Shown here in pieces: positions 334 to 36,237 of a DNA stretch of 57,746 nt; within the stretch, counting starts at the first letter, position 1; each line of letters begins with the position of its first letter. The notes beneath the pieces are model-generated. The model was not told the DNA's origin. It saw only the letters and a list, made by a program, of their open reading frames with translations, and did no database searches. This DNA is from Burkholderiales bacterium. Its GTDB lineage: Bacteria > Pseudomonadota > Gammaproteobacteria > Burkholderiales > Ga0077523. The translations under genes and the position numbers were made by a program. The stretch is taken from the NCBI GenBank assembly GCA_040373665.1, contig JBEICA010000001.1, positions 1-57,746 on the forward strand, read 5' to 3'.

Positions 334-1542
334 TCAAGTCTGATGTAGCGGTTCCGGCCTGGCTCCAACAGGCGACGCTCGGCAACACCCTCGTCGCGCG
401 GCAAAACCCAGCAAGCCCAGACCCGAGAGCAGCATGGCCCATGTTCCGGGTTCGGGAATGGCCGGGGTGAGCAGGAAGACGCTCGTCGCACCCGAGTAAG
501 TACCCAATCCGATGATCTGTCCCTTTTCGTTGACATCAAGGGCTTCGGTCAGCGTGCTCCAGGAACTGCCGGACGGCAGGAGTTCGTTCAGGTAGGTCTG
601 TGTCCACCCGCTGCCAGAGTTGGTCCACATCGTTGCCCGATGATCGTAGCCCGCATACCAGACGCCGCCGACCACGACTCCGCTGTCGTTGATCCCGTTC
701 GCGAAGCCATTGATGCCGCCGCCCGGCGTGGTGACCGGAAGCAAGCTTACGCTGCCCATCGTCCAGACGAACGGCTTGTATTCAGCCGCATAGCTGGTCG
801 ATGGGTTTGCTCCGCCGACGACTGTGCCGGCATCGTTGATGGCCTTGCCGATGAAGACACATTGTGTGTCCAGGCAAAAGTTTGCGGGGCGCAGATCGGG
901 CTGGGCGCCGAGCGGATCGCGGCTGTCCGTTCCCGAAACGACCGTGGTACCTGTCGGGCCGGAGCGGGCGGCGTTGTAGTAGGGCCAGATCTGGTTGATC
1001 AATGCGGTACCGCCGTTGTTGATGCCGACGCCCGGTCCGGTCGCATAACTGGTGGCGCTTCCGTTCATGAGAAAGCCCAGTTGGCTGGGGTCATGGCCAC
1101 CCGCTCCGTTCGGATCCCAGCGCACGCCTCCCCAGAGGGGGCCACCCCCGATGCTGCCGGCGATCTGGCCGGCGTCATTGATCGCGAATGCCTGTGAGCC
1201 GACTGAGCCGTCCGGCATGGGGAGGGCGGACGCAGCTGCGCCGCCGGACCAGACCATGCCTGCGTTGTTGTTCATGTCCATGCCAACGGCGACATTGGCA
1301 TTGTTGATGCCGCGGAACTGCAGGATGTTGGAGACCGTTTGCGTCTGATACACCCCGCCGGCGCCGGGTGACATGACCTTGTTGCCGAACACGACCCAGC
1401 CGTTGTCGTTGATGGCCATCGGCAGGCCTTCGGAGTAGCCGGTATGGGGGCCGAGATCGGTGATGGTCCAGCCAGCCGCCTGGACGCTGCCCGCACACAA
1501 GGCGAGCGCCGCTTCTGCGACAAGAGGGAGTCGTCGTTTCAT
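334..1542 (-). CDS. PEP-CTERM-anchored secreted protein with HAF-type (INDxG) repeats
   Basis: Part of ORF 334..1752. Internal ATG at 1542 gives MKRRLPLVAEAALALCAGSVQA, a signal peptide. AINDNG/AINDAG/GINDSG-type motifs repeat. C-terminus IPEPGTWAMLLSGLGLLGFAARR is a PEP motif plus TM helix plus Arg cluster. Confidence 0.8.
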   Translation of the reverse strand: MKRRLPLVAEAALALCAGSVQAAGWTITDLGPHTGYSEGLPMAINDNGWVVFGNKVMSPGAGGVYQTQTVSNILQFRGINNANVAVGMDMNNNAGMVWSGGAAASALPMPDGSVGSQAFAINDAGQIAGSIGGGPLWGGVRWDPNGAGGHDPSQLGFLMNGSATSYATGPGVGINNGGTALINQIWPYYNAARSGPTGTTVVSGTDSRDPLGAQPDLRPANFCLDTQCVFIGKAINDAGTVVGGANPSTSYAAEYKPFVWTMGSVSLLPVTTPGGGINGFANGINDSGVVVGGVWYAGYDHRATMWTNSGSGWTQTYLNELLPSGSSWSTLTEALDVNEKGQIIGLGTYSGATSVFLLTPAIPEPGTWAMLLSGLGLLGFAARRGCCRASPVGARPEPLHQT

Positions 1543-1754
1543 GATGGTCTCCGGAAGGTTGGCGAGCGGAAGGCAGGGGCGCGAGCATCCTGTTCTTATT
1601 CTTCTTTGAAACAATGATCGCCCCTCGTGAGCCCACGCAGCATGACCGGGATCAAGAGGACAGGCATTTCCAACGGCATCTTTCGTCCGGTTGGGCCTGC
1701 ATCCCCGATGCTCCGAGACGTCCACTGCGGTCAATCGGGTGCTCTGCATCACCT

Positions 1755-2242: not shown

Positions 2243-2827
2243 ATGAAGTCAGGCATGCACACACGCAACGCAGTGCACGGCGCCGCCTTCTTCGCGTCCA
2301 CCTTGCTGGCCAGGTCCGTCCGCGTAGTGACGCGCGACCAGGAGATCGTCGGCGCCGATGTGGAAGACAGCGTCATCACCGCGGAGGTGAAGCGGCGCCT
2401 GGCGAGCAACAAGGCAGTGGATGCCTCGAGCATCAGCGTCGAGACCCGACGCCGAATCGTGATGCTGCCCGGCTTTGCCCAGTACGCCGCGGAGCGCACT
2501 ACCGCCGAATGTCTGGTCTGGAAGGTCAAGGTCGCCAAGGCAATGCGATGGCTGCAGGACGCCGTCTGCAGCCGCGCCAGTGGAATCTCCGCCCCCGCGT
2601 GTGCCGGCTGGGTCGTGCCCTGCCATTGCACCCGTTGGCCCCTCGGCGAGGGCCTCCGATGGCCTCGAGTCCTTGTCAGACCCGTCACGCCGGCGAAGCC
2701 GGGCGTCCGACGATTTGGTCAGGCGCCGTTGCGTCGCCGGCGTCGCTGGACGGCGCCAAACACCAGCGCAGCGCCGCAGCCCAGCAACAGCGCGCTGGAC
2801 GGTTCGGGGATCGGCAGGCTGGTGTAG
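2243..2827 (+). CDS. BON-domain (OsmY-like) protein; 3' end doubtful, possibly degraded
   Basis: Within ORF 2066..2827. DSVITAEVKRRLASNKAVDASSISVETRRRIVMLPGF matches the BON domain pattern. The signal peptide is poor. After about residue 110 the sequence is Arg/Pro-rich and overlaps the convergent gene 2719..3636. Confidence 0.4.
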   Translation: MKSGMHTRNAVHGAAFFASTLLARSVRVVTRDQEIVGADVEDSVITAEVKRRLASNKAVDASSISVETRRRIVMLPGFAQYAAERTTAECLVWKVKVAKAMRWLQDAVCSRASGISAPACAGWVVPCHCTRWPLGEGLRWPRVLVRPVTPAKPGVRRFGQAPLRRRRRWTAPNTSAAPQPSNSALDGSGIGRLV

Positions 2828-3636
2828 TCGTGTCCGCTGGCGCTGCTGAGCGTGACCCCGGGCGTCATGACCTCGATCCAGAAGCCGGCCGTATTTGCTG
2901 CATTGGCGGTGGCTTCGGACCACGCGACGTAGTTGCCTCCCGCGGTCTGACGGCCGGCCCAGGCACTCGCACTGGCGCCCAGACTGGCGTCGATGTCGAA
3001 GACGCCCCACTGGAAGCCGCCTGCGCTTCTTTCGGTCTGTGCCATGCCGCTCACGAGATCGCCGCCGGTGAGTTGCATGGCGATGTCGAGGCCCGGATAG
3101 CGCGGGTGATCAACGAACAGCCAGGCATTCACCGCAGCCTCGCCGGCGCCGCTGACCGCCGTGCTCCCGCTCAACTTCAGGTGGAAGTTGAGCACCACGT
3201 TGGGCACGTAGCCGATGGACATGTTGACCGTGATCGTGTCGTGCCAGTGGGACGTCGCCTGCGCCTCGGACTGGGCCAGATACACGTTGTCGACCTGCCG
3301 GGTCTCGCCCTGTTCGTTGACGTAGACATAGGCCATCGGGTCGGAACTGGCGCGTGCCCGGGCGTAGGCGTGCAATGCCCCGCCGCCCCCGGATGCGCTC
3401 GCGCCGGCGAGCGCGCCCTGGCTGAAGCTGAAGCGGCGGCCTTCCTCGGCGTCGACGTATACCGTCCCGCTGGAGGTGGCCAGATCGCTGCAGTTGCCTG
3501 CGAAGCTGTTCGACGCGCCGCCATCGGCACGCGTGCTCCCGGTAGCCGTACAGGTACCACCGGCAGCGCCCGCGGCCGGGGCGAGCATGCTCATCAGCAG
3601 TGCAAGCCCCAAGGCCGTGCCTGCCTGCAGCTTCAT
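2719..3636 (-). CDS. PEP-CTERM sorting-domain secreted protein
   Basis: Part of ORF 2719..3930. Start MKLQAGTALGLALLMSMLAPAAGA (signal peptide) at 3636. C-terminus LPIPEPSSALLLGCGAALVFGAVQRRRRR is a PEP-CTERM signal. Confidence 0.8.
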   Translation of the reverse strand: MKLQAGTALGLALLMSMLAPAAGAAGGTCTATGSTRADGGASNSFAGNCSDLATSSGTVYVDAEEGRRFSFSQGALAGASASGGGGALHAYARARASSDPMAYVYVNEQGETRQVDNVYLAQSEAQATSHWHDTITVNMSIGYVPNVVLNFHLKLSGSTAVSGAGEAAVNAWLFVDHPRYPGLDIAMQLTGGDLVSGMAQTERSAGGFQWGVFDIDASLGASASAWAGRQTAGGNYVAWSEATANAANTAGFWIEVMTPGVTLSSASGHDYTSLPIPEPSSALLLGCGAALVFGAVQRRRRRNGA

Positions 3637-3843: not shown

Positions 3844-3885
3844 AAAAGAGACGCGCGGTGTCGGTGTCGCGGGACCCTGCGTCTC
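3844..3885 (-). terminator. Possible intrinsic terminator closing the xmo/cop operon
   Basis: Minus strand reads GAGACGC-(24 nt)-GCGTCTC followed by TTTTCC, immediately after the PCu(A)C stop codon (3887-3889). The stem is only 7 bp and the loop is large. Confidence 0.35.
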
Positions 3886-3886
3886 G

Positions 3887-4411
3887 TCAGTGCTTGTGCC
3901 CGGACGGGTGCTTGCCGTGGGGGGCAGCACCGCCGGCCGTGCAGCCCTTGCCGGTCTGGCCGGCCGTCTCGATCATGAAGCTGATGCGGGCGGCGCCGGC
4001 GCGTTCGAACTGCAGCGCACCCGGCACCGCCGCGCCCTGCCGCAGGTCCCTGGACGCCTGCGGGAACTCGATCACGTGCGCCGGGGGCATGAGGCTGGCG
4101 CGTCCCCCGGCCGGCAGGTCGACCCCCGCCACCGGCTGTGGCACACCCCCGCCGGACCGGGGCAACGCCAGGATCCTGCCCCACGGCCCGTCTCCGAGTT
4201 GCGCGCCCACCAGCCGGTCGGGCTGACCGCCCTGGTTGACGAGCAGCATCACGTAGGCCTTCGTGACCGGACCGTCGCAGGCGCTGTCCACCCGGACGAA
4301 GGGATGTGCGATGGTGATCGGGCCGTGCCTGAAGTCGTGTGCCCAGGCTGACGATGCCGACAGGCAGAGCAGCGAGGCGAGGGCGATGCGTACCGGGGCG
4401 GTCATGGACAT
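3887..4411 (-). CDS. Copper chaperone PCu(A)C (DUF461 family) with His-rich tail
   Basis: Signal peptide ...SASSAWA then HDFRHGPITIAHPFVRV...AYVMLLVNQGGQPDRLVG, the typical PCuAC N-terminal pattern. C-terminus is HGKHPSGHKH. Confidence 0.8.
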   Translation of the reverse strand: MSMTAPVRIALASLLCLSASSAWAHDFRHGPITIAHPFVRVDSACDGPVTKAYVMLLVNQGGQPDRLVGAQLGDGPWGRILALPRSGGGVPQPVAGVDLPAGGRASLMPPAHVIEFPQASRDLRQGAAVPGALQFERAGAARISFMIETAGQTGKGCTAGGAAPHGKHPSGHKH

Positions 4412-4429
4412 GGGGTTCTGCTCGTGGGA

Positions 4430-5293
4430 TCAGGGGTCGGGAACGGGGCGGGCCCCGGCGAGCGCGGCCTGCAGGCGCTCGGTGAATCGCGCAGGCCGCC
4501 TGGCGTGGCTTTCGGTGCCTGCGCAGAACTCCACGCGTGCGCCGGGAGCGCAGTGCTCTGCGACGCTGCAGGTGTCGGCGCCGACGCCGGCCGGCAGCGG
4601 GGCGCAGGAGAAGCAGCGTGCCCACCAGTGAGCGGCACCCTCGCCATAGCCGGGAAAATGCTCGTCCGTGCCGGAATGCAGGATGGTCACCGACAATGGG
4701 GCCGGGCAGGTTTCGCGGGCCAGATCCTCGGCGCGGATCCCGGCGGCGCTGGCGACGATGGCAGCGGGTTGCACGGCGTCCGCCGCTCGGCGCAGTACTG
4801 CTCCCTGTGACATCGACCCGCCGTCCGAGTGACCGGCGAAGACCACGCGCCGCGTGTCGATGCACCAGCGTCCTGCGACCGTGGCGGCGACCTCCGACTG
4901 GCGCTGGACAGCGAGAGCCGACAGCGGCAGCGGGGCGCTCAGCGCCACGACGAAGCCGGCCGCGGTTGCCTCGGCCGTGACGTCGTAGAAGCGCTCGGCT
5001 GCCGATGGGGCGAAGCCGGCGGGCGGGAACAGCACCAGCAGGCCGTAGCGCCGATCTGCACGGTAGTCGGTCGGCGTGACGACGCTGATCTCCAGGCCGT
5101 GAGGGGTGCTGGTCTCGCTGCGGCCGGCCGGTCCGGGTGCCGGCGCCTCGCACATGCCCGCCGACTGCGGCCCGGCGGGACGCGCCTCGGGAGAGGGTTG
5201 CAGCAGGGTGCGGCCGAACAGGATGGCCAGCGACAGCACGAGCAGCCACGGCGCCACGCGGGCTACGCGCGTGAGGGTCTTGCCGCCCGTCAC
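4430..5293 (-). CDS. Alpha/beta-hydrolase esterase (PHB-depolymerase/LpqC-like), Cys-rich
   Basis: N-terminal TM/signal helix. GHSDGG nucleophile elbow (G-x-S-x-G). Overall layout resembles COG3509-type esterases. Confidence 0.6.
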   Translation of the reverse strand: MTGGKTLTRVARVAPWLLVLSLAILFGRTLLQPSPEARPAGPQSAGMCEAPAPGPAGRSETSTPHGLEISVVTPTDYRADRRYGLLVLFPPAGFAPSAAERFYDVTAEATAAGFVVALSAPLPLSALAVQRQSEVAATVAGRWCIDTRRVVFAGHSDGGSMSQGAVLRRAADAVQPAAIVASAAGIRAEDLARETCPAPLSVTILHSGTDEHFPGYGEGAAHWWARCFSCAPLPAGVGADTCSVAEHCAPGARVEFCAGTESHARRPARFTERLQAALAGARPVPDP

Positions 5294-5344
5294 GGCGTGC
5301 CTCTTCCAGCGTGGCGATCGGCCCCGCGCGCGGTGACCGGCGGT

Positions 5345-7231
5345 TCAGCGCGGACCATGGATATCGGCATCGCGGATCCGCGGCTCGCGCGCGAGCCCTG
5401 CGACCATCGCCGCCACCTCGTCGACGCCCGGAAGCGGAGTGGTCGCGGTCCAGCGGGCGCGCACGAAGCCGAAGCGGTCGATGAGGAACAGCAGGCCGCC
5501 TGCGCTGACGCGTTCGTCGTCGAAGTCGGGATCTTCCAGCGTGCGCCGGTACAGCGCCCACGCAGCGGCCACGTCACCGGTCTCGTCCACCACCGCATCC
5601 CAGCCCGGTGGCCGCGCGGACGTGGCTGCAGCAGGCGAGAGAACGGCGACCGCTTGCACGCCGGCCTGCGTCCGCGCGTCCGCCAGGGCGCCCAGCCGCC
5701 GGGCCTGCGCGGGGTCGTCCGCGAAGGCCAGCAGCACCGGCTGCTCCTGCCTGCGCCACCCGGCGAGGCTGCGCAACTCGTTGGTGGTATCGGCATGGCG
5801 CAGGTCGATGGCAGGCAGCCAGGGATCGTTCGGGATGATGCGGCCGGTCACCGGCCGCGCCTCGTGGCCCAGGGACAGGGCTGACAGGTAATTGAGCAGC
5901 TGCCAGCGCTCGTCCGCGGACAGGCGGTCGCGGAATCCGGGCATGCCGGAGCGGCCCATGCCCTCGGACAGCCACCAGTAGAGATCGCCGTGGGTGTGCC
6001 ACTGGACGTGCGGTTCCGTGAGGTTGGCGGCGCGCACCGGCAGCTGGCCGGCGAGCGGGCCGTCGCCGCGACCTTGCACGCCGTGGCAGTCCACGCACCA
6101 CTGCCGATACAGCCGCGCCCCGGCGGTCACCGAGCCGGTGTCGTAGGGCACGGGTGAGTGCAGGTAGGTGGTCGGATAGGCGTCCACGGAGAGCGCCGGG
6201 ACGGCCAGTGCGATGCCGGCGACCAGTCCGGTGGTGGCGATCGCGCCTGCCTGCCAGGCACTGCGGTGGCGGCGTCGCCAGGCGAGCAGCGCGCCGGTCG
6301 CCGCCGGGATGGGTGCCAGCAGGGCAGGCCACAGCGCCGTCCAGCTGCTCTGGAGCCATGCCGCGGTCGGCGCAATACGGAACGGGAAGGGCCAGTCGAT
6401 GACGTCGTGGGCGGCGGGGATGGTGGTCGCCACCTCCACCGCCGCTGCGACGATGAGCACGCACAGGGCGCTCTCCAACGCCAGCCATGCGGCCGCCCGG
6501 CCATGGTCCGCCGAGGTGCCGCGCGCCAGCCAGCGCCGCAACCGGCCCGCGCAGAAAAGCGCGGCGACGATGCAGCCGAGCTTGGCCAGCAGCCAATGGC
6601 CGTAGGGTGTCGCCAGCAGCGCCGCGCCCGAGGCGACGGTGCGATCCGCCAGCAGCACGCCCGTGGCCAGCAACAGCACCATGCCGCGCAGGGCCCAGGG
6701 CGAGAAGGCCTGCAGGACGTCGCGCCAGCGGCCGCCGAATCGACCGCGCGCCTCCAGGGCGCGGCAGGTGACAAGGGCCCCCAGACCCGCGACCCACAGG
6801 GTGGCGAGCGCAAGGTGCACTACGGCCGCGATGTCGAGGACCCCGCCGTCCCCCGACGCGATCACATGGCCTCGCAGTGCCCCCCCGGCGGCCGCCGCCA
6901 GCGCCAGACCGGCCGCCACCCGTGTCCAGCCGCCGATGGCCAGACTGACGAGCGCGAGGGCTGCGCACAAAGCCTGGGCAACCAGAACCCGGCCGATCCA
7001 GGTGGTGAGCGCCGCGCCCATCCTTTCCGAAAGCGGCTCGTCCGGCAGCAGCATCCGCGCGTGGCCTGCCAGCATGAGACCGGCGGCGACGACGCACAGG
7101 GCGAGGGCGCCGCCGGCGATGCGTCCCAGCCGCGCCCGGGTGCAGTCGTCCAAGCGGTCCGGGGGCAACAGGCGGAGGCCGAGCAGGCCGGCTGCCAGGG
7201 CGGGAAGAAGTAGTTGAGCGGCGCGCAGCAT
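5345..7231 (-). CDS. copD: CopD-family copper-resistance membrane protein fused to a cytochrome c domain and a thioredoxin-like C-terminal domain
   Basis: About 330 aa of multiple hydrophobic helices (CopD-like). Then YRQWCVDCHGVQGRGDG (CxxCH haem c motif) ...MPGF. Then PVLLAFADD...GLLFLIDRFGFVRARW, a Trx/redoxin-like fold with no CxxC. Confidence 0.75.
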   Translation of the reverse strand: MLRAAQLLLPALAAGLLGLRLLPPDRLDDCTRARLGRIAGGALALCVVAAGLMLAGHARMLLPDEPLSERMGAALTTWIGRVLVAQALCAALALVSLAIGGWTRVAAGLALAAAAGGALRGHVIASGDGGVLDIAAVVHLALATLWVAGLGALVTCRALEARGRFGGRWRDVLQAFSPWALRGMVLLLATGVLLADRTVASGAALLATPYGHWLLAKLGCIVAALFCAGRLRRWLARGTSADHGRAAAWLALESALCVLIVAAAVEVATTIPAAHDVIDWPFPFRIAPTAAWLQSSWTALWPALLAPIPAATGALLAWRRRHRSAWQAGAIATTGLVAGIALAVPALSVDAYPTTYLHSPVPYDTGSVTAGARLYRQWCVDCHGVQGRGDGPLAGQLPVRAANLTEPHVQWHTHGDLYWWLSEGMGRSGMPGFRDRLSADERWQLLNYLSALSLGHEARPVTGRIIPNDPWLPAIDLRHADTTNELRSLAGWRRQEQPVLLAFADDPAQARRLGALADARTQAGVQAVAVLSPAAATSARPPGWDAVVDETGDVAAAWALYRRTLEDPDFDDERVSAGGLLFLIDRFGFVRARWTATTPLPGVDEVAAMVAGLAREPRIRDADIHGPR

Positions 7232-7309
7232 CCCGGCTCCAGCGCGGAGATCTCAGCGGCCTGCGGGATGATGGCGGGGCGCGTGGGGACCCGGTGAGCC
7301 CATGAGCTT

Positions 7310-7672
7310 TCAGCGCGGTGCGACGCTGAACGCGAGTTCACCCTTGGTCCGGTGGCCGTCACGCGCGACGATGGACCAGGCCAGGAGACACTCTCCAGCC
7401 GTGCCGGCTGGCAGTTGGATCGTCACGGTACGGCCGTCGGCTGACGCGCTGGTCCCGAGCCGCCCCTGCACCGGCTTGCCGCCGCAGCGCAGCGTGGCCC
7501 TGGCGAAGGCGGGCTCCACCGGCTCGGAGAATTGCAGCCGGACCCGGGACGGCGGCGCACCCAGCGCCGCCCTGTGCGGGGGATCGCTGGCCACCACGTA
7601 GGCATGGGCGAAGCCCGTCGACGGCAGGAGCGCCAGGGCGGCGCAGATCATCGCGGGGCCGCAGGGCTTCAT
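7310..7672 (-). CDS. copC: CopC-domain periplasmic copper-binding protein
   Basis: Part of ORF 7310..7780. MKPCGPAMICAALALLPSTGFA then HAYVVASDPPH...RVRLQFSEPVEPAF...WSIVARDGHRTKGELAFSV is the CopC pattern. Its ATG overlaps the upstream stop (ATGA at 7669-7672). Confidence 0.85.
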   Translation of the reverse strand: MKPCGPAMICAALALLPSTGFAHAYVVASDPPHRAALGAPPSRVRLQFSEPVEPAFARATLRCGGKPVQGRLGTSASADGRTVTIQLPAGTAGECLLAWSIVARDGHRTKGELAFSVAPR

Positions 7673-8232
7673 GCGTCGCCCGAGGTCGCGATCGAGCGCT
7701 GCAGGCGATGCCGGCCGAGCAGGTATCCCCCGGCACCGAGGAGCAGCAGCGCGATGGCGCCACCGGCAAACAGTGGCCACGCGGCGCGGTCCTTGCCCAC
7801 CGAGAAGGGAAACACGGCCGTGTGCTGGCGCTTCTCCCCGGCGTACACGACCCCGACGAAGTCGCCCGGCTCCTGGAAGTGGTAACGCAGTGTCAGCGTT
7901 CCCTTGGGGTAGACCTGGGGCGGCAGGCGGTAGGCGACATCGCTGGCATCGTTGACGTCGGCCCGGCGACGCGCGATCACCACCTCGATGGGCATGTCGC
8001 GCAACACGCTGTCGACGGCGTCGAGCACGATGATGGTTTCACCGGTGCGCGGGATGTCCTCGCAGAACTCGGAGCGCTGGGCGTCGAGCTGGTAGCCTGC
8101 GAAGTGCATCTGGTAGGGACCGAGCGTCAGCTTGCACTGGTCCTGGTCCATCGCCAGTCCGCCGTGGCCGTGGGCCGCCGGTGCGAGAAGGGTCGCGGCG
8201 AGCACCGCGACCCGGGCGATGCCGAGGCTCAT
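7669..8232 (-). CDS. PmoD/AmoD-like protein: signal peptide, about 130-aa periplasmic domain, C-terminal TM helix
   Basis: Part of ORF 7669..8370, starting at MSLGIARVAVLAATLLAPAA. Position directly after subunit B, the architecture and a Cys...MH motif (CKLTLGPYQMHF) resemble PmoD/AmoD. C-terminal helix is WPLFAGGAIALLLLGAGGYLLG. ATGA overlaps on both sides. The family assignment is tentative. Confidence 0.5.
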   Translation of the reverse strand: MSLGIARVAVLAATLLAPAAHGHGGLAMDQDQCKLTLGPYQMHFAGYQLDAQRSEFCEDIPRTGETIIVLDAVDSVLRDMPIEVVIARRRADVNDASDVAYRLPPQVYPKGTLTLRYHFQEPGDFVGVVYAGEKRQHTAVFPFSVGKDRAAWPLFAGGAIALLLLGAGGYLLGRHRLQRSIATSGDA

Positions 8233-9488
8233 AGCCGGGTGAAGGTCGGCAGGATGGGGCCGCCGATCTCCGTGTGCTGGCGCTCGCCGGTGGGCGTCAC
8301 CGTGAACAGCAGACCGCCGAACTTGGAATCCACGTCGGTGAGGAAGCTCACCAGACGCTCCAGTTCCCACAGCACGTCGCTCGCCTCCAGGGCGATCTCG
8401 CGGGTCTCGCCGGGGCCGATCGGGCTGGCATCGGACAGGACCAGGCCGCCGGGGGCGATGGTGTCGGTGGGTGATCCCGCGAGCACCGCCTTGTCGGCGC
8501 CGGGCGCCTGCCGGTTGATGAAGCGCAGGTTGGCCGTGGTGAACTCCAGCACCTGCAACGGCTCGTTGCCGGTGTTGGTGATCTTCGCCTTGATGCGCAT
8601 GGCGCGGCCCGGCACGTCGTAGGTCGCGTCCAGCACCTTCACCTGGACCGTCGAGGGCTGCGCGGGCAGCGGGTCTACCTTGCTGGTGCCTGCCTGGAGC
8701 GGCACCACGTACGGGTAGCTCTTCCTCGCGTAGGCGTAGCCGCCGAGGGTGAGTCCGATCACGGTGATGCCCAGGGCGATGCCGACCATCAGGTCCCGGC
8801 GGGTCACAAGGAGATCCTCGCGGCCCTTGTTGAGCGCGATCCAGCGCGGGATCAGCAGCGGTCGCACCAGCCAGAAGGCGAGCCAGAAGGCAGCCAGCGC
8901 GAGCCAGACGCCGTACCAGCCGAGGGCCCGTGACACGCCGTAGTCCTCGAGGTTTTCGATGGTCTCGCCGGTCATGGTCTTGACCTCGTGGCGGAAATCG
9001 GCGCGCGCACCCGTGACCTCGATCCAGACCCCCGGGCCCACCAGGGGGCCGGAGCCCTTCACCGAGAGCATCGGGTGGATGTGGTGGCTGCCCGGCACGC
9101 GACCCTTGAGCACCAGCCGGAACTCGTAGTCGCGCCCGAGCTGGAAGTCGGCGAAGGACTGTCGCGCCGGGACGCCGTTGACGTAGCTCTCCACGCGGGT
9201 GATGACGGGGCCCGGCGAGTAGGCCGACATGTACACCGTCTCAGGCAGCGAGACCGCGTCCGGCCAGTCCTGCATCAGGCGGAAACGCCCGGTGATGGTG
9301 AACTCTTCGTTGACCGCGATCTTGGAACGGTCGAACTGCACGTCGTAGAACTGGACCGTGCGGGTGCGCAGGTAGGGCTCCTGGGCACGTTCCCCGTGGG
9401 CGAGGACGTCGAGGGAGGCCAGCAGCGCAAGGCAGGCCAGGGGCAGCAGGGCGAGGCGGCGGAGCGCGCCGCGGAGCATGTTCGTCAT
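8229..9488 (-). CDS. xmoB: Copper membrane monooxygenase subunit B (PmoB/AmoB family)
   Basis: Part of ORF 8229..9605. Start MTNMLRG at 9488 with AGGGGA upstream. Signal peptide then HGERAQEPYLRTRTVQFYD. GSHHIHPM (CuB His ligands). Two TM helices, then a C-terminal cupredoxin-like domain. Confidence 0.9.
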   Translation of the reverse strand: MTNMLRGALRRLALLPLACLALLASLDVLAHGERAQEPYLRTRTVQFYDVQFDRSKIAVNEEFTITGRFRLMQDWPDAVSLPETVYMSAYSPGPVITRVESYVNGVPARQSFADFQLGRDYEFRLVLKGRVPGSHHIHPMLSVKGSGPLVGPGVWIEVTGARADFRHEVKTMTGETIENLEDYGVSRALGWYGVWLALAAFWLAFWLVRPLLIPRWIALNKGREDLLVTRRDLMVGIALGITVIGLTLGGYAYARKSYPYVVPLQAGTSKVDPLPAQPSTVQVKVLDATYDVPGRAMRIKAKITNTGNEPLQVLEFTTANLRFINRQAPGADKAVLAGSPTDTIAPGGLVLSDASPIGPGETREIALEASDVLWELERLVSFLTDVDSKFGGLLFTVTPTGERQHTEIGGPILPTFTRL

Positions 9489-9499
9489 GGTGGTTCCCC

Positions 9500-10354
9500 T
9501 CAACCCGCAGTCTTCTGGTCGACCTTGACGCCCATCATCGCCATCACCTTCCTGTTGTTGGGCAGGAAGGTGGCGCTGGACATGAGCATGCCGAGCTTCC
9601 ACCATCCGTAGTGCATGAACATGCAGATGAAGCCGGAGAACAGCGCGGACACCCAGCTGGCGGAGTCACCGAAGGTGCGCAGGGTGCCGCGTTCGATGAT
9701 GCGGATGTATTCCGGGGTTGCGGAGCGCGGATAGACGTAGCCGATGAGGTCCGCCATCGAGGCCATCATGCCCTGGTGCGCCGCCGGCACGTAGTAGGGG
9801 GCCAGGATGATGTAGTTCGATGGATAGAACAGGAAGGCGAAGGCGAAGCCGCCGAAGATGGCCGTGAACAAGGCGTTGCGGAAGATCAGCAGCATCACGT
9901 CGAGCACGAGGGCCCCCGCGATCATCTGGGCGGGGAGCACCAGGTTGAGCGGGTAGTCGGTCCAGAGCATGAACTGCATCGGCCGGGTGATGGACACGGC
10001 CAGCATCAGGCACACGGCACCCACGGTGGCGCCGATGGGCAGACGGAAGTAGTTCCAGAACACCGCCTGCAGGGCGCCGGGGAACATGATCATCACCACG
10101 GGCATGACCAGCGGCCAGTACTGGCGATCCTTCCAGTCGATGAACATGTCCCAGTCGCCGGCCAGCAGCATGACGTGGAGGTGGATCGCCCCGGTGAACA
10201 GCAGCACCACCGCGATGACCACCAGCAGGTCGAACAGTCGCGAGGTGCGGGCGGCGGCAGGCGACAGGCCGGCGGCCTGGACCACGGGTGAGAAGGAGCC
10301 GGAGACGATGTCGCCGGCGCGGGGCGCAGCGGAGGCACTGTGTGTGGAGTTCAT
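9500..10354 (-). CDS. xmoA: Copper membrane monooxygenase subunit A (PmoA/AmoA family), extended termini
   Basis: Part of ORF 9500..10375. ATG at 10354 is preceded by GAGGAA. Motifs: HLHVMLLAGDWDMFIDWKDRQYWP, TPEYIRIIERGTLRTFG. 284 aa. Confidence 0.9.
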   Translation of the reverse strand: MNSTHSASAAPRAGDIVSGSFSPVVQAAGLSPAAARTSRLFDLLVVIAVVLLFTGAIHLHVMLLAGDWDMFIDWKDRQYWPLVMPVVMIMFPGALQAVFWNYFRLPIGATVGAVCLMLAVSITRPMQFMLWTDYPLNLVLPAQMIAGALVLDVMLLIFRNALFTAIFGGFAFAFLFYPSNYIILAPYYVPAAHQGMMASMADLIGYVYPRSATPEYIRIIERGTLRTFGDSASWVSALFSGFICMFMHYGWWKLGMLMSSATFLPNNRKVMAMMGVKVDQKTAG

Positions 10355-10480
10355 CTGGACATTCCTCGCGTGCACGACCCCACCGGGGCCGGCGCAGTGC
10401 GCCCCGTCGGGTCGTGTCGGTTCGTTCAGGGGCCGGGTCCCGACCTGCAGGCCGGGACACGGGGCAGGGCTGCCGGCGTC

Positions 10481-11263
10481 TCAGGTGGCGGCTTCGCCCT
10501 TGAAGACCTGCGGCAGCAGCTCTCGCATGCGCGCGATGATCTGCATCAGCACGCCGGCCAGGGCGAGGGCGTTCCAGCCCAGCACGACGAAGCCCCAGTG
10601 CAGCGGATGGGAGAAGATCTCCTCGGTCAGCCAGTAGGCGTGGCCCCACTCGTTGTAGCCGAGATTCGGGAGGATGAGGAACGGGCCGACCACCGCGAAC
10701 ACGTGCATCAGGGAGATGCCGCGGCAGAAGGCGGGGATGCGCGTCATGGCGTAGACGAAGCTGCCGACGCCGAACAGCAGGTAGATCGGTATGCAGGCAT
10801 AGAACAGCACGATGTGGCTGGGCGTGATCGGGGTGTCGCGCAGCACGGTCTGGTGCCAGTTGCCATCCCCTTCGGCGAAGAAGCTGCCGGTCCAGTAGAA
10901 GGTGAAGGTGTACACCACGAGCCACATGGTGAGGTAGAAGTAGCGCCGCAGCTCGACCGCCGGGGCGACGTTGTCCATGTCGCGCTCACGGGTGGCGATC
11001 AGGTAGACCTGGACGGCGGCGGCGATGCCGAACAGCACCGGCATCTGGATGTAGAACAACCGCATCCAGACGGCCTCGAAGGCCGGGTCCGTGGAGTCCA
11101 GGCCGACGGTCATGCCGTGGGCCTGCTGGTACATGCGATAACCGACATACACCGCAGAGAGGATCACCAGAGAGACCAGGAACATCGTGTAGTTGAGCCC
11201 GAACTTCTTCGCCTTGGCGGCCGGCGTCGACTGCGCCGGCAGGGCGGCCTGTGCGTTTGCCAT
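10481..11263 (-). CDS. xmoC: Copper membrane monooxygenase subunit C (PmoC/AmoC family)
   Basis: FFAEGDGNWHQTVLRDTPITPSHIVLFY and NEWGHAYWLTEEIFSHPLHWGF, the PmoC metal-site motifs. GAGGAG RBS 8 nt upstream of the ATG. Confidence 0.9.
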   Translation of the reverse strand: MANAQAALPAQSTPAAKAKKFGLNYTMFLVSLVILSAVYVGYRMYQQAHGMTVGLDSTDPAFEAVWMRLFYIQMPVLFGIAAAVQVYLIATRERDMDNVAPAVELRRYFYLTMWLVVYTFTFYWTGSFFAEGDGNWHQTVLRDTPITPSHIVLFYACIPIYLLFGVGSFVYAMTRIPAFCRGISLMHVFAVVGPFLILPNLGYNEWGHAYWLTEEIFSHPLHWGFVVLGWNALALAGVLMQIIARMRELLPQVFKGEAAT

Positions 11264-11676
11264 GCTCGTGTCTCCTCAGGGGGTTGGTGTTGCCGGATCA
11301 GGGATGTGGCGCCGCCGCGTGGCCGGCGCGAACCGGATCGGGCGGGCTGTTGATTCGGACCGATGGAAGGCGGGGCGGGGCGCACTGGCCGATGTCGGAG
11401 CGGGCGCCGGGCCCCGGGAGCCTGCAGGCATGGCGTCGCCTCGCCGCGGATGCGCGGCCGGCGCCGGATGCGGCACCGCGCCGCCCGGACCCGGGCCTGA
11501 ACGACTGTCCTGTGCGACCACCGTTTCCAAATGCCACCCCTCCACGGGCCTGCACCTGCTCGTCGATGCGCGATGCGCTGTTCGACGTGCGATCCGGTCG
11601 GATGCTGTGCCGACAGGTCCCGGTGGCCGCCTTCATCGGGCGGGCGTCGTCCCGGGACGAAATTGCATTGGGAAGC

Positions 11677-11706
11677 AGTCTAGGCCGCGCGTTTTCGGGG
11701 CGTCAA
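11677..11706 (-). promoter_or_regulatory. Candidate sigma70 promoter for xmoC (would give an approximately 400-nt leader)
   Basis: Minus strand reads TTGACG-18 nt-TAGACT, in the only AT-enriched patch of the 640-bp region upstream of xmoC. Identified by motif only. Confidence 0.25.
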
Positions 11707-12901: not shown

Positions 12902-13207
12902 TCAGGCCTTGCCCGGAGGCGGGCCGTAGTAGCCCTTGCGGTCGGTGATCTCGCGCAGCAGGCGCGCGCCCTCGACGACGTGGGCGTGCAGGCCTTCGCC
13001 GCCGCCGTCGATGTGGCGCAGCAGGGCTTCCCGCATGCGCGGATCCCAGTAGGTGCGCAGGTGGTTGCGGATGCCCTCGGCACGTCGCCCCGGGGGATAG
13101 GGGGCGAAGAAGTCACCGATCTGGTTGGCCATGGTGATCATGCGAGACATGGCCAACACCGGCGTGTCCGCGTCGCGCCCGGCGTGGGAGTCGGTCACGG
13201 TGCTCAT
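12902..13207 (-). CDS. fdsD: Formate dehydrogenase delta subunit (FdsD family)
   Basis: MANQIGDFFAPYP...IRNHLRTYWDPRMREALL matches the FdsD pattern. Its ATG overlaps the fdsA stop (ATGA at 13204-13207). Confidence 0.75.
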   Translation of the reverse strand: MSTVTDSHAGRDADTPVLAMSRMITMANQIGDFFAPYPPGRRAEGIRNHLRTYWDPRMREALLRHIDGGGEGLHAHVVEGARLLREITDRKGYYGPPPGKA

Positions 13208-16072
13208 GCGTCCACCGCCTCGGGGGTCGCGCGCTCTGCCGCGGCGCGCCCGGAAGCGGCCTGCCCGACCAGCGAGACTTCCACCGCCGTGACCTTGTAC
13301 TCGGGGCAGTTGGTGGCCCAGTCGGAGAGGTCGGAGGTGACCACGTTCACCCGTGTCTCGGCGTGGTGGAAGGTGGTGTAGACGATGCCCGGATTGACCC
13401 GCGGCGAGATCCTGGCGCGCAGCTGCGTGCGACCGAAACGGCTGGTGACCCAGACTCTGTCACCGTCGCGGATGCCCCGCGTCGCCGCATCCCCGCTGCT
13501 GATCTCGAGCACGTCCTCGGGGTGCCAGCGCGAGTTGGCGGTGCGGCGGGTCTGGGTGCCGACGTTGTATTGGGTGAGGATGCGGCCGGTGGTCAGCAGC
13601 AGTGGCAGCTGGTCCGAGGTGCGTTCCCGCGTGGGCACGTATTCGGTGAGCATGAAGGTGCCGCGGCCATTGGCCCGGGGGAAGCGCTCGGTGTGCAGCA
13701 CCTCGGTACCGTGCGGGGCGCGCTCGTCACAGGGCCACTGCGCCGAGCCGATCTCGTCGAGGAGGGCGAAGCTCAGTCCGCGGTAGGTCGGCGACAGGCG
13801 CGCGATCTCGTCGAGGATCTCGCCGGCGTGCTGGTAGTGAGCGGGGTAGCCCATGGCGTTCATGAGCTTCACCACCACCTCCCAGTCCTGGTAGCCCGCC
13901 AGGGGCTCCACCACCTTGCGCACGCGGTTCACGCGCCGCTCGGCACTGGTGAAGGTGCCGTCCTTCTCCAGCGAGGAACTGCCGGGCAGGAAGACGTGGG
14001 CGTACTTCGCCGTTTCGTTGAGGAACAGGTCGTGGACGATCACGCAGTCCATGGCCTTCAGCGCCTCGATGATGTGGCTCTGGTTCGGGTCGCTCTGCAC
14101 CGGATCCTCGCCCATGATGTACATGCCGCGGAAGTGCCCGGTGAGCGCGGCGTCGAACATGTTGGGCAGGCGCAGGCCGGGTTCCGCGTCCAGCGGCACC
14201 CCCCAGTCCGACTCGAAGCCGGCGCGCACCTCGTTGTCGGTGACGAAGCGGTAGCCGCTGAACACGTGGGGCCAGCTGCCCAGGCAACTGCCGCCCTGGA
14301 CGTTGCCCTGTCCGCGCAGCGGGTTCACCCCCACCCCCTCGCGGCCGAGCATGCCGCAGGCGAGCGACAGGTTGCCCAGGCACATGACGCCGGTCGATCC
14401 CTGGGAGTGCTCGGTCACGCCCAGGCCGTAATAGATGGCGCTGTTGGGCCCGCCGGCGTAGAGCCGCGCGGCACGGCGGATGTCCGCGGGGTCGAGGCCG
14501 GCTTCCGGGCCGATGACCTCGGGGGTGTAGCGGTCCGAGCCGACCAGGTCACGCCAGACCTCGAACTCGTCCCATTCGCAGCGCGCGCGCACGAACGCCT
14601 CGTCGAACAGCCCTTCGCGCACGATGACGTGGGCGATGCTGTCCAGCACGGCGACGTTGGTGCCGGGTCGCAGCGCGAGGTGGACGGAGGCCTCGACGTG
14701 GGGCGAGCGCACGGTCTCCGTGCGGCGCGGGTCGATGACGATGAGCTTCGCCCCCTGCCGGATGCGGCGCTTGAGCAGGGAGCCGAAGACGGGGTGGCCT
14801 TCGGTGGGGTTGGCGCCCACCACCATGATGACGTCGGCCTTCAGGATGGAGTCGAAGTGCTGGCTGGCCGCGCCCCAGCCCACCGTGGCCGACAGGCCGA
14901 ACTGGGTGGGCGAGTGGCAGATGCGGGCACAGTTGTCGACGTTGTTGTTGCCGAACACTGCGCGAGCGAGCTTCTGCACCAGCCAGATCTCCTCGTTGGT
15001 ACACCGTGAACTGGAGATGGCACCGATCGAGCGCACGCCATGGCGCGCCTGAATGTCCTGCAGACGGCGCGCCGCGAAGCGGAACGCCTCGTCCCAGCCC
15101 ACCTCGCGCCACGGCTGGTCGATGCTGTCGCGGACCATGGGGGTGCGAATCCGGTCCGGGTGCTGGTAGTAGTCGAAGGCGAAGCGGCCCTTGATGCAGC
15201 TGTGGCCGTGATTGGCCTTGCCTTCCTTCCAGGGGATCATGCGCACGATGCGGCCGCCGGCGGTCTGCGCCTTGAAGCCGCATCCGACGCCGCAGTAGGC
15301 GCAGGTGGTGACCACGCTGCGATCCGGCTTGATCGGATTAGCCACGCTGGTACTCCGTTTCGAAGAGGCTTTTTTCCACGAGGGCCTGCGTCGGACAGGT
15401 CTGGACGCACGCACCGCAACTGACGCACTCGGACTCGAAGAAGGGTTCGTCCTGTCCCGCCGCCACCTTGGACTCGAAGCCGCGTCCCTGGATGGTCAGG
15501 GCGAAGGTGCCCTGGATCTCCTCGCAGGCGCGGACGCACCGGCTGCAGACGATGCACTTCGCCGGGTCGAACAGGAAATACGGGTTCGACAGGTCCACCG
15601 GGCTGTCGCGGTGGTCCTGCCCGCCGTGGTAGGGATGGCTGTGGACGCCGACCTCGGCCAGCACCTCGTGCAGCTCGCTCCACCCGTCGGGGACATCGCC
15701 TGCAGGGAAATCCGACAGGTAGAGCTCGAGCACGCCCTTGCGCAACCGGGTCAGCGCCTCGGAGCGCGTGCGCACCACCATGCCCTCGGCCACCAGCGTG
15801 GTGCAGCTCGCCGGGTAGCCCCGCATGCCATCGATCTCGACCAGGCAGACGCGGCAGCTCCCGAAGGCCTCCAGCGTGTCGGTCGCGCAGAGCTTCGGCA
15901 CCGACCGCCCGGCGCGCGCGGCTGCCAGCATGATGCTGCTGCCGCGGGGCACGGATACGGGCACGTCGTCCACGGTGAGCTGCACGAGATCGCCCGACCT
16001 CGGCGGTGTTCCGAGGTCCGCGTCGTCGGAGAGGTTGCGCAGCTCTGCCCACATGGTTCGCTTTTCCTGCAT
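13204..16072 (-). CDS. fdsA: NAD-linked formate dehydrogenase alpha subunit (FdsA), frameshifted as assembled (fragments 15338..16072 and 13204..15414)
   Basis: N-terminal fragment carries 2Fe-2S/4Fe-4S motifs (LCATDTLEAFGSCRVCLVEIDG, CIVCSRCVRACEE, CVSCGACVQTCP) and ends at TAA 15338-15340. The second frame continues with VVTTCAYCGVGCGF..., the Mo-bisPGD catalytic domain. Confidence 0.85.
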
Positions 16073-35542: not shown

Positions 35543-36237
35543 CTTCAGGGCCTCCCGGCCTGTGACGTGGCGCAGTCGGATGCGGCGCAGCGCCGCGCAT
35601 CCGCGGGACCGCGTGCCAGGGTGACAACGATGGCGCCGGGCGGGCATCCACCCTGGCGCGTGGCCCGGGGCCTGGCCCGTGAGGCAGGCTGCCGGGGGGC
35701 GGCGCGATGGCGGCCAGTATGCCAGCCGTAAACCTCCCGGCCCGCGGTTGCCCTGGCGGACGCTTCCACCTCGCCGAGACCGCGCATGCCTGGAGATTGC
35801 CTGCCCGGGGTCACGTGCCCGATCATGTTGCCTGATCGCGCGTCGCCGTCCGGGTATTGCAGGGCTGTGTGTGATCGCGCGGCCCTGCCAGGAGGGACCG
35901 GTCCACAGGATCGGGGCCCACGGTTCCAGGGTTTTCGTGTCGGCCCGGGCGTCGGGGCGGCCCCGGTGGGCCCGGCGTTCCCGTCATGCCAGGGTGTGCC
36001 GTGCCGGCGGGCCCGTCGCGGAGCCGCCGGGCGCTGCCTGCCGCGACGGCCGTTGCCCGTGTCAGCCGTCGAGTATCCTGCGAGGACCATGTTCCGGATG
36101 TCATCTGAAAGCGGGGCCCTGCCAGCCCTTGTCCCGTCGACCCGCGAATCAGGCGTCATGACCCTTTCGCGGTGCGCCGGTCGGGCCACGCCAGGTCCGT
36201 GCGACCGTCCGGATGGCCGGATGCGGGGCCCGTCGTC

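What the first reader, a model, noticed from the sequence alone, without database searches (positions are those of the whole stretch)
3844..11706. Divergent copper membrane monooxygenase (xmoCAB) operon with an unusually long copper-handling tail and no canonical partner pathway nearby
Seen in the sequence:
- The minus-strand order is C (10481-11263), A (9500-10354), B (8229-9488). Downstream come a PmoD-like gene, CopC, a CopD fusion, an esterase and PCu(A)C.
- All expected metal ligands are present. XmoB matures to HGE and carries HHIH. XmoC has D-x3-H-x12-H (GDGNWHQ...PSH) and N-x3-H-x13-H (NEWGH...HPLHW). XmoA has HLHVMLLAGDWD.
- XmoA is 284 aa, with N- and C-terminal extensions compared with the roughly 250-275 aa PmoA/AmoA I remember. 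Its similarity to Methylococcus PmoA looks only moderate.
- No methanol dehydrogenase, hydroxylamine oxidoreductase or sMMO gene occurs in these 57 kb. The neighbours are a formate dehydrogenase, an IorAB-type aldehyde oxidoreductase, FadB and pyruvate carboxylase.

Inference: this is a CuMMO of unknown substrate (short alkane or alkene, methane or ammonia) in a high-GC host that resembles neither a classical methanotroph nor a nitrifier.
Basis: partly seen in the sequence, partly recalled or inferred. Interest (0 to 1): 0.8.

Follow-up and report, generated by a model that had tools for sequence, protein, structure and literature searches.

The report
Burkholderiales copper monooxygenase operon, substrate unproven
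This is a real, intact eight-gene operon for a copper membrane monooxygenase, related to methane and ammonia monooxygenases, from a known but biochemically untested lineage in freshwater Burkholderiales that most likely oxidises short alkanes rather than methane or ammonia.

Summary
On the minus strand, 3887-11263 carries xmoC, xmoA, xmoB, a PmoD-like gene, copC, a copD fusion, a serine esterase and a PCuAC-like gene, tightly packed. All CuB, CuC and CuD ligands are present.

XmoA, XmoB and XmoC are only 43-49% identical to solved beta-AOB AMO and gamma pMMO. In an NJ tree the window and its 120 closest database relatives form a separate clade (83/100 bootstrap). So it does not nest in a canonical clade.

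Relatives are MAGs labelled Burkholderiales, Comamonadaceae or Methylibium, mostly from lakes, rivers and sand filters. One Lake Mendota MAG contig is 93% identical in DNA.

This lineage is already in the literature: Rochman et al. 2020 described xmoCABD in Rhodoferax and Polaromonas and linked it to ethane and propane. I could not test which of their lineages this one belongs to.

The pmoD-copC-copD-PCuAC tail is known from Methylosinus OB3b and beta-AOB, so it is not unusual. Not noted in the papers I read are two features kept across about 20 related loci: a membrane-anchored esterase, and haem-c plus thioredoxin-fold domains fused to CopD.

The substrate is inferred, not shown. Verdict: new member of a known kind, moderate interest.

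The parts
11677..11706 (-). Sigma-70-like promoter candidate (TTGACG-18-TAGACT), about 415 nt upstream of the xmoC start, in the 638-bp intergenic region
   Evidence: one consensus match against 0.3 expected from shuffles. This is weak evidence. No exact sigma-54 consensus site occurs anywhere in the window.
10481..11263 (-). xmoC, 260 aa. CuC ligands D133/H137/H150; CuD ligands N204/H208/H222
   Evidence: PF04896 at 300 bits. NF041641 at 348 bits, above its 319 cutoff. Best PDB hits are AmoC 9pxf and 9cl6 at 240-242 bits, with pMMO PmoC at 217-235 bits. Motif positions.
9500..10354 (-). xmoA, 284 aa. Conserved HLHVMLLAGDWD patch at residues 58-69; N-terminal extension of about 17 aa
   Evidence: PF02461 at 277 bits. 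NF041557 at 296 bits against a 290 cutoff; TIGR03080 at 264 bits, below its 318 cutoff. PDB hits: AMO 227-230 bits, pMMO 192-221 bits. Identity of 43-45% to the references. Close homologs of the same 284-aa length align over 99-100% of the query.
8229..9488 (-). xmoB, 419 aa. Signal peptide, mature N-terminal His31, H136 and H138 (CuB site)
   Evidence: PF04744 at 450 bits. NF041640 at 513 bits. PDB hits: AmoB 361-375 bits, PmoB 286-349 bits. Identity of 43-44% to AmoB.
7669..8232 (-). PmoD/AmoD-like cupredoxin protein, 187 aa. Signal peptide, mature N-terminus HGG, motif C33-x8-M42-H43...C57, C-terminal membrane anchor
   Evidence: PDB 6cpd PmoD at E 6.6e-15. The motif is conserved in 25 related loci. 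It is not the CuA-forming Cx7MxHxnC motif of PMC6189053.
7310..7672 (-). CopC, 120 aa. Mature N-terminal His (HAY...) and no Met-rich Cu(I) site evident on reading the sequence
   Evidence: PF04234 at 65 bits. Sequence shown.
5345..7231 (-). Three-part fusion, 628 aa: CopD membrane domain (about 1-350), mono-haem cytochrome c (CVDCH at 379-383), and a Cys-less thioredoxin-fold domain (about 470-620)
   Evidence: PF05425, PF13442 and PF00034. AF2 model with pLDDT 92.1. Foldseek matches cytochrome c552 9vr0 (TMt 0.82) and ResA, TlpA and peroxiredoxins (TMt 0.55-0.68). More distant homologs hit PF00578. The fusion is present in nearly all related loci.
4430..5293 (-). Membrane-anchored, periplasm-facing serine esterase, 287 aa. 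TM helix 4-30, triad Ser156/Asp210/His263, seven conserved Cys
   Evidence: No Pfam hit at the default threshold. GHSDG and D210 are invariant, and H263 and the Cys residues nearly invariant, in 26 homologs. AF2 model with pLDDT 91.7. Foldseek matches feruloyl esterase 8jh8 (E 2e-11) and the PHB depolymerases 8daj and 9byu. A homolog is found in about 20 related operons.
3887..4411 (-). PCuAC-like periplasmic copper chaperone, 174 aa, with a His-rich C-terminal tail
   Evidence: PF04314 at 33 bits against a 29.4 cutoff. Found only in the closest relatives: L002, L003, L018, L025 and L026.

Best explanation
[quoted passage not shown] It belongs to a clade that is widespread in freshwater and groundwater Burkholderiales and is distinct from both ammonia and methane monooxygenases.

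**Shown**
- The three subunits are intact and carry every residue that binds copper in solved pMMO and AMO structures.
- They are followed, with little or no spacing, by a PmoD-like cupredoxin, CopC, a CopD fused to a haem-c domain and a thioredoxin-fold domain, a membrane-anchored serine esterase and a PCuAC-like chaperone.
- This order is conserved in about 20 related loci.

**Inferred from what is established for pMMO and AMO**
- XmoCAB sits in the membrane as a trimer of heterotrimers. It uses O2 and two electrons from the quinol pool to hydroxylate a small hydrophobic substrate.
- CopC, CopD, PCuAC and PmoD acquire copper and deliver it to the enzyme.
- The haem-c domain on CopD could reduce Cu(II) to Cu(I) or relay electrons.

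**Inferred substrate**
- The most likely substrate is a C2-C4 alkane such as ethane, propane or butane.
- The resulting alcohol would be oxidised to the acid and enter CoA-dependent beta-oxidation-type metabolism.
- Methane or ammonia catabolism is less likely.

The role of the esterase is unknown.
For: **Identity and ligands.**

**Separate clade.**
- 43-49% identity to AMO and pMMO references.
- NJ bootstrap 83/100 for the clade; only 4/100 for a sister relation to AMO.

**Host.**
- L001, labelled Burkholderiales bacterium from Lake Mendota, is 93.4% identical in DNA over 8.3 kb and keeps the synteny.
- Other relatives are Comamonadaceae and Methylibium MAGs.

**Operon conservation.**

**Alkane reading.**
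- Rochman et al. 2020 (ISME J 14:714) is cited for alkane-utilising Betaproteobacteria carrying xmoCABD. Its content is recalled from memory, because the paper is not held.
- An acyl-CoA synthetase, thiolase, (SDR) and enoyl-CoA hydratase module lies directly downstream of the operon in three relatives: L027, L005/L032 and L033.
- A MimR_N/HTH_8 activator lies divergently upstream in L027 and L004.
- No HAO or methanol dehydrogenase lies within 10 kb in any locus whose called genes were listed with Pfam families, nor anywhere in the window.
Against: - No biochemical or genetic test exists for this clade, and PMC8630023 lists these enzymes as 'unknown function'.
- The window itself has no adjacent beta-oxidation module and no MimR-like regulator.
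- Its immediate upstream neighbour is a formate dehydrogenase, which would also suit C1 metabolism. That adjacency is seen only in the window and in L001, and the listed flanks of L025-L028 and L032 differ.
- NCBIfam's AmoA, AmoB and AmoC_BACT equivalog cutoffs are all passed.
- GROWdb authors read similar genes as a 'divergent particulate methane monooxygenase'.
- The rest of the genome is unseen.
- My tree is NJ on one subunit with few labelled references.
Confidence: 0.55

Rival explanations
1. It is a methane monooxygenase: a divergent pMMO that lets abundant freshwater heterotrophs oxidise or co-oxidise methane.
For: - All pMMO copper ligands are present.
- Formate dehydrogenase alpha lies about 2 kb upstream of xmoC, in the same orientation.
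- The GROWdb river catalogue interprets such genes in core river genera as possible methane oxidation.
Against: - No methanol dehydrogenase in the window or in the flanks of relatives.
- XmoA fails TIGR03080, scoring 264 against a cutoff of 318.
- It lies outside the pMMO clade.
- The FDH adjacency is seen only in the window and L001.
- From memory, Rochman et al. reported no methane assimilation for bacteria carrying their lineage.
Confidence: 0.1
2. It is an ammonia monooxygenase in a heterotrophic or cryptic nitrifier.
For: - AmoA_BACT, AmoB_BACT and AmoC_BACT equivalog cutoffs are all passed.
- The best PDB hits for all three subunits are AMO.
- The xmoCAB-D-copC-copD order resembles the beta-AOB amoCAB(E)D-copCD order.
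Against: - The score margin over pMMO is small, for example 230 against 221 bits for the A subunit.
- Only 43-44% identity to AmoA, and not sister to AMO in the tree (4/100).
- A single pmoD-like gene rather than the amoE-amoD pair.
- No HAO or cytochrome c554/cM552 in the window or in relatives' flanks.
- The surrounding genes are those of an organoheterotroph: cyanophycin synthetases, a FadB-like protein, a Liv-type transporter and pyruvate carboxylase.
Confidence: 0.07
3. It oxidises some other small molecule, such as ethylene or another alkene, acetone or another ketone, an ether, or a volatile abundant in lakes. The conserved esterase would then process the product.
For: - CuMMOs are promiscuous, and new substrates keep appearing, for example acetone for the verrucomicrobial PMO3 (PMC8630023).
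- A catalytically intact, periplasm-facing esterase is kept in every operon of the clade. No known alkane, methane or ammonia CuMMO pathway explains it.
- MimR-family activators, seen next to two relatives, respond to acetone in Mycobacterium. That last point is from my own knowledge.
Against: - There is no direct evidence for any such substrate.
- The esterase family also occurs away from CuMMO genes (L029-L031), so it may have a general envelope role.
Confidence: 0.2

Closest known systems
Betaproteobacterial xmoCABD of Rhodoferax and Polaromonas (Rochman et al. 2020, ISME J 14:714)
   Same: - xmoC-A-B-D order.
- Burkholderiales or Comamonadaceae hosts that are neither methanotrophs nor nitrifiers.
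- Low identity to canonical AMO and pMMO.
- Proposed short-alkane substrate.
   Different: - I could not obtain their sequences, so it is untested which of their three lineages, if any, this belongs to.
- This host is a 68-70% GC freshwater lineage.
- In the papers I could read, the esterase and the CopD-haem c-Trx fusion are not mentioned.
Beta-AOB ammonia monooxygenase operon, amoCAB(E)D-copCD (Nitrosomonas, Nitrosospira; PDB 9cl6, 9pxf, 9leg)
   Same: - CAB order followed by a PmoD-family gene, copC and copD.
- All copper ligands.
- Highest HMMER scores, and NCBIfam equivalog cutoffs passed.
   Different: - 43-49% identity and a separate clade.
- One PmoD-like gene rather than two.
- An extra esterase and PCuAC.
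- No HAO module nearby.
- Heterotrophic gene neighbourhood.
[quoted passage not shown]
   Same: The same set and order of copper accessory genes, including PCuAC at the end.
   Different: - The in-operon PmoD of alpha-MOB has the CuA-forming Cx7MxH motif, whereas here it is Cx8MH.
- No esterase is listed for the OB3b operon.
- XmoA scores lowest against alpha-pMMO (192-196 bits).
Actinobacterial hydrocarbon/butane monooxygenase (hmoCAB/bmoCAB) and gammaproteobacterial ethane/ethylene CuMMO (emoCAB, Haliea)
   Same: CuMMOs used for C2-C4 hydrocarbons in non-methanotrophs, which is the same proposed physiology.
   Different: Different host phyla or classes. No labelled reference sequences for these groups were available, so the relation to them was not tested.

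Membership tests
Copper membrane monooxygenase (CuMMO, xmoCAB) superfamily | Three subunits matching PF04896 (C), PF02461 (A) and PF04744 (B), encoded together | tested here: met
   300, 277 and 450 bits. The genes are adjacent in C-A-B order.
Copper membrane monooxygenase (CuMMO, xmoCAB) superfamily | Copper ligands: the B subunit's N-terminal His plus HxH (CuB), and the C subunit's D/H/H (CuC) and N/H/H (CuD) | tested here: met
   Alignments to solved AMO structures and motif positions.
Copper membrane monooxygenase (CuMMO, xmoCAB) superfamily | O2-dependent hydroxylation activity | not testable with these tools
   Needs expression or whole-cell assays.
Bacterial ammonia monooxygenase (beta-AOB type) | NCBIfam AmoA, AmoB and AmoC_BACT equivalog cutoffs | tested here: met
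   A 296 against 290 (marginal), B 513 against 336, C 348 against 319.
Bacterial ammonia monooxygenase (beta-AOB type) | Sequence nests within the AOB AmoA clade | tested here: not met
   43-44% identity to 9pxf and 9cl6 AmoA. A separate clade at 83/100 bootstrap, and sister to AMO in only 4/100 replicates.
Bacterial ammonia monooxygenase (beta-AOB type) | Hydroxylamine oxidoreductase with cytochromes c554 and cM552 in the genome | tested here: inconclusive
   Absent from the 57.7 kb window and from the listed +/-10 kb flanks of relatives. The rest of the genome is unavailable.
Bacterial ammonia monooxygenase (beta-AOB type) | Tandem amoE-amoD pair after amoB | tested here: not met
   A single PmoD-like gene in the window and in all related loci. 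The feature itself is as described in PMC6189053.
Particulate methane monooxygenase | Sequence nests within a PmoA clade, or passes TIGR03080 | tested here: not met
   TIGR03080 at 264 bits, below its 318 cutoff. 45% identity to 6cxh PmoA, and outside the window clade. Only one labelled pMMO reference was in the tree.
Particulate methane monooxygenase | PQQ methanol dehydrogenase (mxaF/xoxF) in the genome | tested here: inconclusive
   None in the window or in relatives' flanks. The genome is not available.
Pxm (pxmABC) | Gene order A-B-C | tested here: not met
   The order is C-A-B.
Betaproteobacterial alkane-associated xmoCABD (Rochman et al. 2020) | xmoC-A-B-D cluster in Burkholderiales or Comamonadaceae that are not methanotrophs or nitrifiers | tested here: met
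   Gene order. The host is inferred from L001 (93.4% nt identity, labelled Burkholderiales) and from Comamonadaceae and Methylibium MAG relatives.
Betaproteobacterial alkane-associated xmoCABD (Rochman et al. 2020) | Clusters with the published Rhodoferax and Polaromonas sequences | not tested
   The paper and its sequences are not held. Cluster look-ups returned no organism names.
Betaproteobacterial alkane-associated xmoCABD (Rochman et al. 2020) | Induction by, or growth on, ethane or propane | not testable with these tools
   Indirect support only: a CoA-ligase, thiolase and hydratase module next to the operon in L027, L005/L032 and L033.

The most novel reading that the evidence does not exclude
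The operon encodes a functionally new CuMMO system. Its natural substrate would be none of methane, ammonia or C2-C4 alkanes. The clade-specific, always co-encoded periplasmic serine esterase and the haem-c/thioredoxin-fused CopD would be obligatory parts of the pathway or of enzyme maturation. Because carriers are common in lakes, rivers and sand filters, this would be an unrecognised sink for some volatile compound in fresh water.
Probability: 0.12. Interest if true: 0.7.

Novelty: new member of a known kind. Interest (0 to 1): 0.38.

Why it matters
- Genome pipelines name these genes 'bacterial ammonia monooxygenase' because the NCBIfam equivalog cutoffs are passed. River catalogues read them as possible methane oxidation. 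Either reading would misassign nitrification or methanotrophy to abundant freshwater heterotrophs.
- The clade is large: all 120 listed metagenome homologs share at least 49% identity with this XmoA.
- No isolate, structure or enzyme assay for it appears in the papers I could read.
- A clean, complete operon with conserved accessory genes is a good template for heterologous expression, and for asking what the esterase and the haem-fused CopD contribute to CuMMO assembly.

Tried and rejected
- **Rochman et al. 2020.** Reading it by PMC id failed because it is not held. Its content is therefore cited from memory and from papers that cite it.
- **Organism names.** The listing of cluster members on ten XmoA relatives returned none.
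- **Sigma-54 promoter.** An exact search of the window found nothing. The sigma-70 scan gave a single weak match.
- **Rfam.** No hits in the window.
- **Pfam on accessory pieces.** At E<=10, the CopD C-terminal domain and the PmoD-like protein gave nothing. Structure prediction and a PDB sequence search resolved them instead.
- **50%-identity representative library.** It was too coarse to resolve CuMMO subgroups. Few full-length representatives were returned and none are labelled.
- **Pxm.** Rejected on gene order.
- **Recent horizontal island.** The operon's GC (0.67-0.73) and GC3 (0.85-0.93) match the flanks. Transfer within the clade is still likely, because near-identical operons sit in hosts with 52-70% GC.
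- **Esterase as a marker of the CuMMO.** Rejected, because homologs occur alone in Beijerinckiaceae MAG contigs and one other metagenome contig.

Full report
**1. What is in the sequence**

ORF listing and translation show eight minus-strand genes between 3887 and 11263, with Pfam, NCBIfam and PDB support.
- xmoC, 10481-11263: PF04896, 300 bits.
- xmoA, 9500-10354: PF02461, 277 bits.
- xmoB, 8229-9488: PF04744, 450 bits.
- A 187-aa protein, 7669-8232: no Pfam hit, but it matches the solved PmoD structure 6cpd at E 6.6e-15.
- CopC, 7310-7672.
- A 628-aa CopD/cytochrome c fusion, 5345-7231.
- A 287-aa protein with no Pfam hit, 4430-5293.
- A weak PCuAC match, 3887-4411.

Spacing runs from 4-nt overlaps to 126 nt, which fits one transcript. 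A 638-bp intergenic region precedes xmoC. It holds one sigma-70-like match at 11706-11677 and no exact sigma-54 consensus. The identical gene calls appear on a 7.7-kb public contig that is 99.9% identical to the window (L024).

**2. Metal ligands**

Alignments to solved AMO and pMMO chains and motif positions give the following.
- XmoB: mature N-terminal His31 (ALA|HGE) and H136 and H138 in HHIH, the CuB site.
- XmoC: D133, H137 and H150 (CuC), and N204, H208 and H222 (CuD).
- XmoA: the conserved HLHVMLLAGDWD patch.

XmoA starts about 17 residues before beta-AOB AmoA. Close homologs of the same 284-aa length align over 99-100% of the query. The C-terminus is longer only relative to the 247-aa PmoA.

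**3. Where it sits in the family**

- All three subunits score best against AMO structures (9pxf, 9cl6, 9leg), but only just ahead of pMMO. For the A subunit the scores are 230 against 221 bits.
- In a trimmed alignment, XmoA is 43-45% identical to two beta-AOB AmoA sequences and to one gammaproteobacterial PmoA. Those references are 48% identical to each other.
- XmoB is 43-44% identical to AmoB, and XmoC is 49% identical to AmoC.
- None of the 120 best database hits (49-99% identity) is more than 50% identical to the AMO or pMMO references.
- In NJ trees the window and these hits form a clade that excludes AMO, pMMO and the other 50%-identity representatives, in 83 of 100 bootstraps. A sister relation to AMO appears in 4 of 100.

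For B and C the evidence is identity and HMMER ranking only, since I built no tree for them.

There are limits to this tree. It is NJ on one subunit, with few labelled references, and no labelled emo, hmo or pxm sequences were available.

**4. Host**

- A scan of GTDB species genomes found 23 loci. All are MAGs.
- They are labelled Burkholderiales, Burkholderiaceae, Comamonadaceae, Methylibium, Rhodocyclaceae or Betaproteobacteria. They come largely from lakes, a creek and other waters.
- L001, a Burkholderiales bacterium from Lake Mendota, is 93.4% identical in DNA over 8.3 kb. It shares the upstream methyltransferase and formate dehydrogenase genes.

The rest of the window encodes ordinary organoheterotroph functions:
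- three cyanophycin-synthetase-like genes;
- a FadB/FadJ-like protein;
- a Liv-type ABC transporter;
- a Mo-hydroxylase pair;
- pyruvate carboxylase;
- ExbBD;
- a c-di-GMP protein.

No methanol dehydrogenase, HAO or sMMO domain was found.

**5. The accessory genes**

The order xmoCAB, pmoD-like, copC, copD fusion, esterase is conserved in about 20 loci. These span XmoA identities down to 55% and host GC from 28 to 70%. PCuAC is present only in the closest relatives.

According to Fisher et al. 2018 (PMC6189053), extended operons with pmoD, copC, copD and sometimes PCuAC are already known in alpha-methanotrophs and beta-AOB. The copper tail as such is therefore not unusual.

Three details are specific to this clade.
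- **PmoD-like protein.** It carries C-x8-M-H...C, conserved across the clade. This is not the Cx7MxHxnC motif to which CuA formation is limited in that paper. It probably binds copper but need not form a CuA centre.
- **CopD fusion.** The AF2 model has pLDDT 92.1. Foldseek matches a cytochrome c552-like domain (TMt 0.82) and a ResA/TlpA/peroxiredoxin-like thioredoxin fold (TMt 0.55-0.68). The window copy has no cysteine in that last domain. More distant homologs still hit PF00578.
- **The 287-aa protein.** It is a serine esterase.
  - GHSDG and D210 are invariant, and H263 nearly so, in 26 homologs. Seven Cys are conserved.
  - The AF2 model has pLDDT 91.7 and an N-terminal transmembrane helix.
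  - The best structural matches are feruloyl esterase 8jh8 and the PHB depolymerases 8daj and 9byu.
  - Homologs also occur away from any CuMMO genes in Beijerinckiaceae MAGs, so the family was recruited into this operon rather than being unique to it.

Its role here is unexplained.

**6. Function**

The mechanism of the core enzyme follows from what is established for pMMO and AMO. It is a membrane (ABC)3 enzyme that uses O2 and quinol-derived electrons to hydroxylate a small substrate. CopC, CopD, PCuAC and PmoD supply copper.

The substrate is inferred. The flanking genes are not conserved, but some patterns recur in relatives.
- In three relatives (L027, L005/L032, L033), an acyl-CoA synthetase, thiolase, (SDR) and enoyl-CoA hydratase set, sometimes with an AraC regulator, follows the operon directly.
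- In L027 and L004, a MimR_N/HTH_8 activator lies divergently upstream.
- No relative has HAO or methanol dehydrogenase within the listed 10 kb.

The published link of betaproteobacterial xmoCABD to ethane and propane use comes from Rochman et al. 2020. That paper is cited, and its details are recalled from memory. Together with the flanking patterns, this makes a C2-C4 alkane monooxygenase the most likely reading.

Several points count against certainty.
- The window lacks those flanking modules.
- A formate dehydrogenase alpha (TIGR01591, 859 bits) lies just upstream, though that adjacency is seen only in the window and L001.
- PMC8630023 still lists these enzymes as of unknown function.
- The GROWdb authors read similar genes as possible methane oxidation.

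**7. Comparison and verdict**

The operon works like, and is a member of, the CuMMO superfamily.
- It is not a member of the AOB AMO clade or of the one labelled pMMO reference clade, although it passes NCBIfam's AmoA, AmoB and AmoC_BACT equivalog cutoffs. This explains why NCBI names the MAG homologs 'bacterial ammonia monooxygenase' and creates an annotation hazard.
- It is not Pxm, on gene order.
- It fits the betaproteobacterial xmoCABD group described in 2020, but clustering with those published sequences could not be tested.

I rate it a new member of a known kind. It is of moderate interest, because the clade is abundant, untested biochemically, and carries two conserved accessory features that nobody has explained.

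Noticed in passing
window 13204-16072 (minus strand); L001 1056-3921: The formate dehydrogenase alpha subunit is split into two ORFs in different frames that overlap by 77 nt. One is an N-terminal 2Fe-2S/4Fe-4S piece (15338-16072), the other the catalytic part (13204-15414, TIGR01591 at 859 bits). The same arrangement occurs in the related MAG contig L001, so it is not a one-off sequencing error. The cause could be a frameshift, a later true start codon, or two separate genes.
   Followed up: partly
window 9500-11263 and 8229-9488; NCBI names: All three subunits pass NCBIfam's 'bacterial ammonia monooxygenase' equivalog cutoffs even though they lie outside the AOB clade. PGAP therefore labels these heterotroph MAG genes as AmoA, AmoB and AmoC, which risks false inference of nitrification.
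   Followed up: yes
window 33278-35647, 38991-41558, 41573-43804 (minus strand); 36172-38484 (plus strand): Three large cyanophycin-synthetase-like genes (ATP-grasp plus Mur-ligase domains) lie close together, with an ABC exporter between them. This is an unusual triple set.
   Followed up: no
window 334-1752 and 2719-3636 (minus strand): Two PEP-CTERM-motif proteins lie directly downstream of the operon. The second, of 305 aa, is also present on the near-identical contig L024. They are probably unrelated to the monooxygenase.
   Followed up: no
L003, L004, L020: Contigs carrying this Burkholderiales-type operon are binned as 'uncultured Bifidobacterium sp.' (L003) and 'Acetobacteraceae' (L004). 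L020, labelled Alphaproteobacteria, has only 28% GC yet keeps the full gene order. This points to mis-binning, or to transfer into very different hosts.
   Followed up: no
L033 5734-6732: A second, shorter Monooxygenase_B (PmoB-like) ORF of 332 aa lies apart from the xmoAB genes, between a thiolase and an acyl-CoA synthetase.
   Followed up: no
L002, L003, L018, L025, L026 compared with the window: Their XmoA is 87-90% identical to the window's protein, but the loci have 54% GC against 68-71% here, and blastn finds no nucleotide match at E 1e-20. The protein has stayed conserved across a large shift in host base composition.
   Followed up: partly
window 29471-30790 (minus strand): A nickel-pincer-cofactor-dependent isomerase (LarA family, group 22; NF052515 at 523 bits).
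   Followed up: no
L029 4241-5104, L031 1397-2074, L030 10001-10900: Homologs of the operon's esterase stand alone. In the Beijerinckiaceae and Methylocella MAG contigs L029 and L031 they lie beside YjeF, YccV and gyrA-type genes. In the metagenome contig L030 the homolog lies among other unrelated genes.
   Followed up: partly
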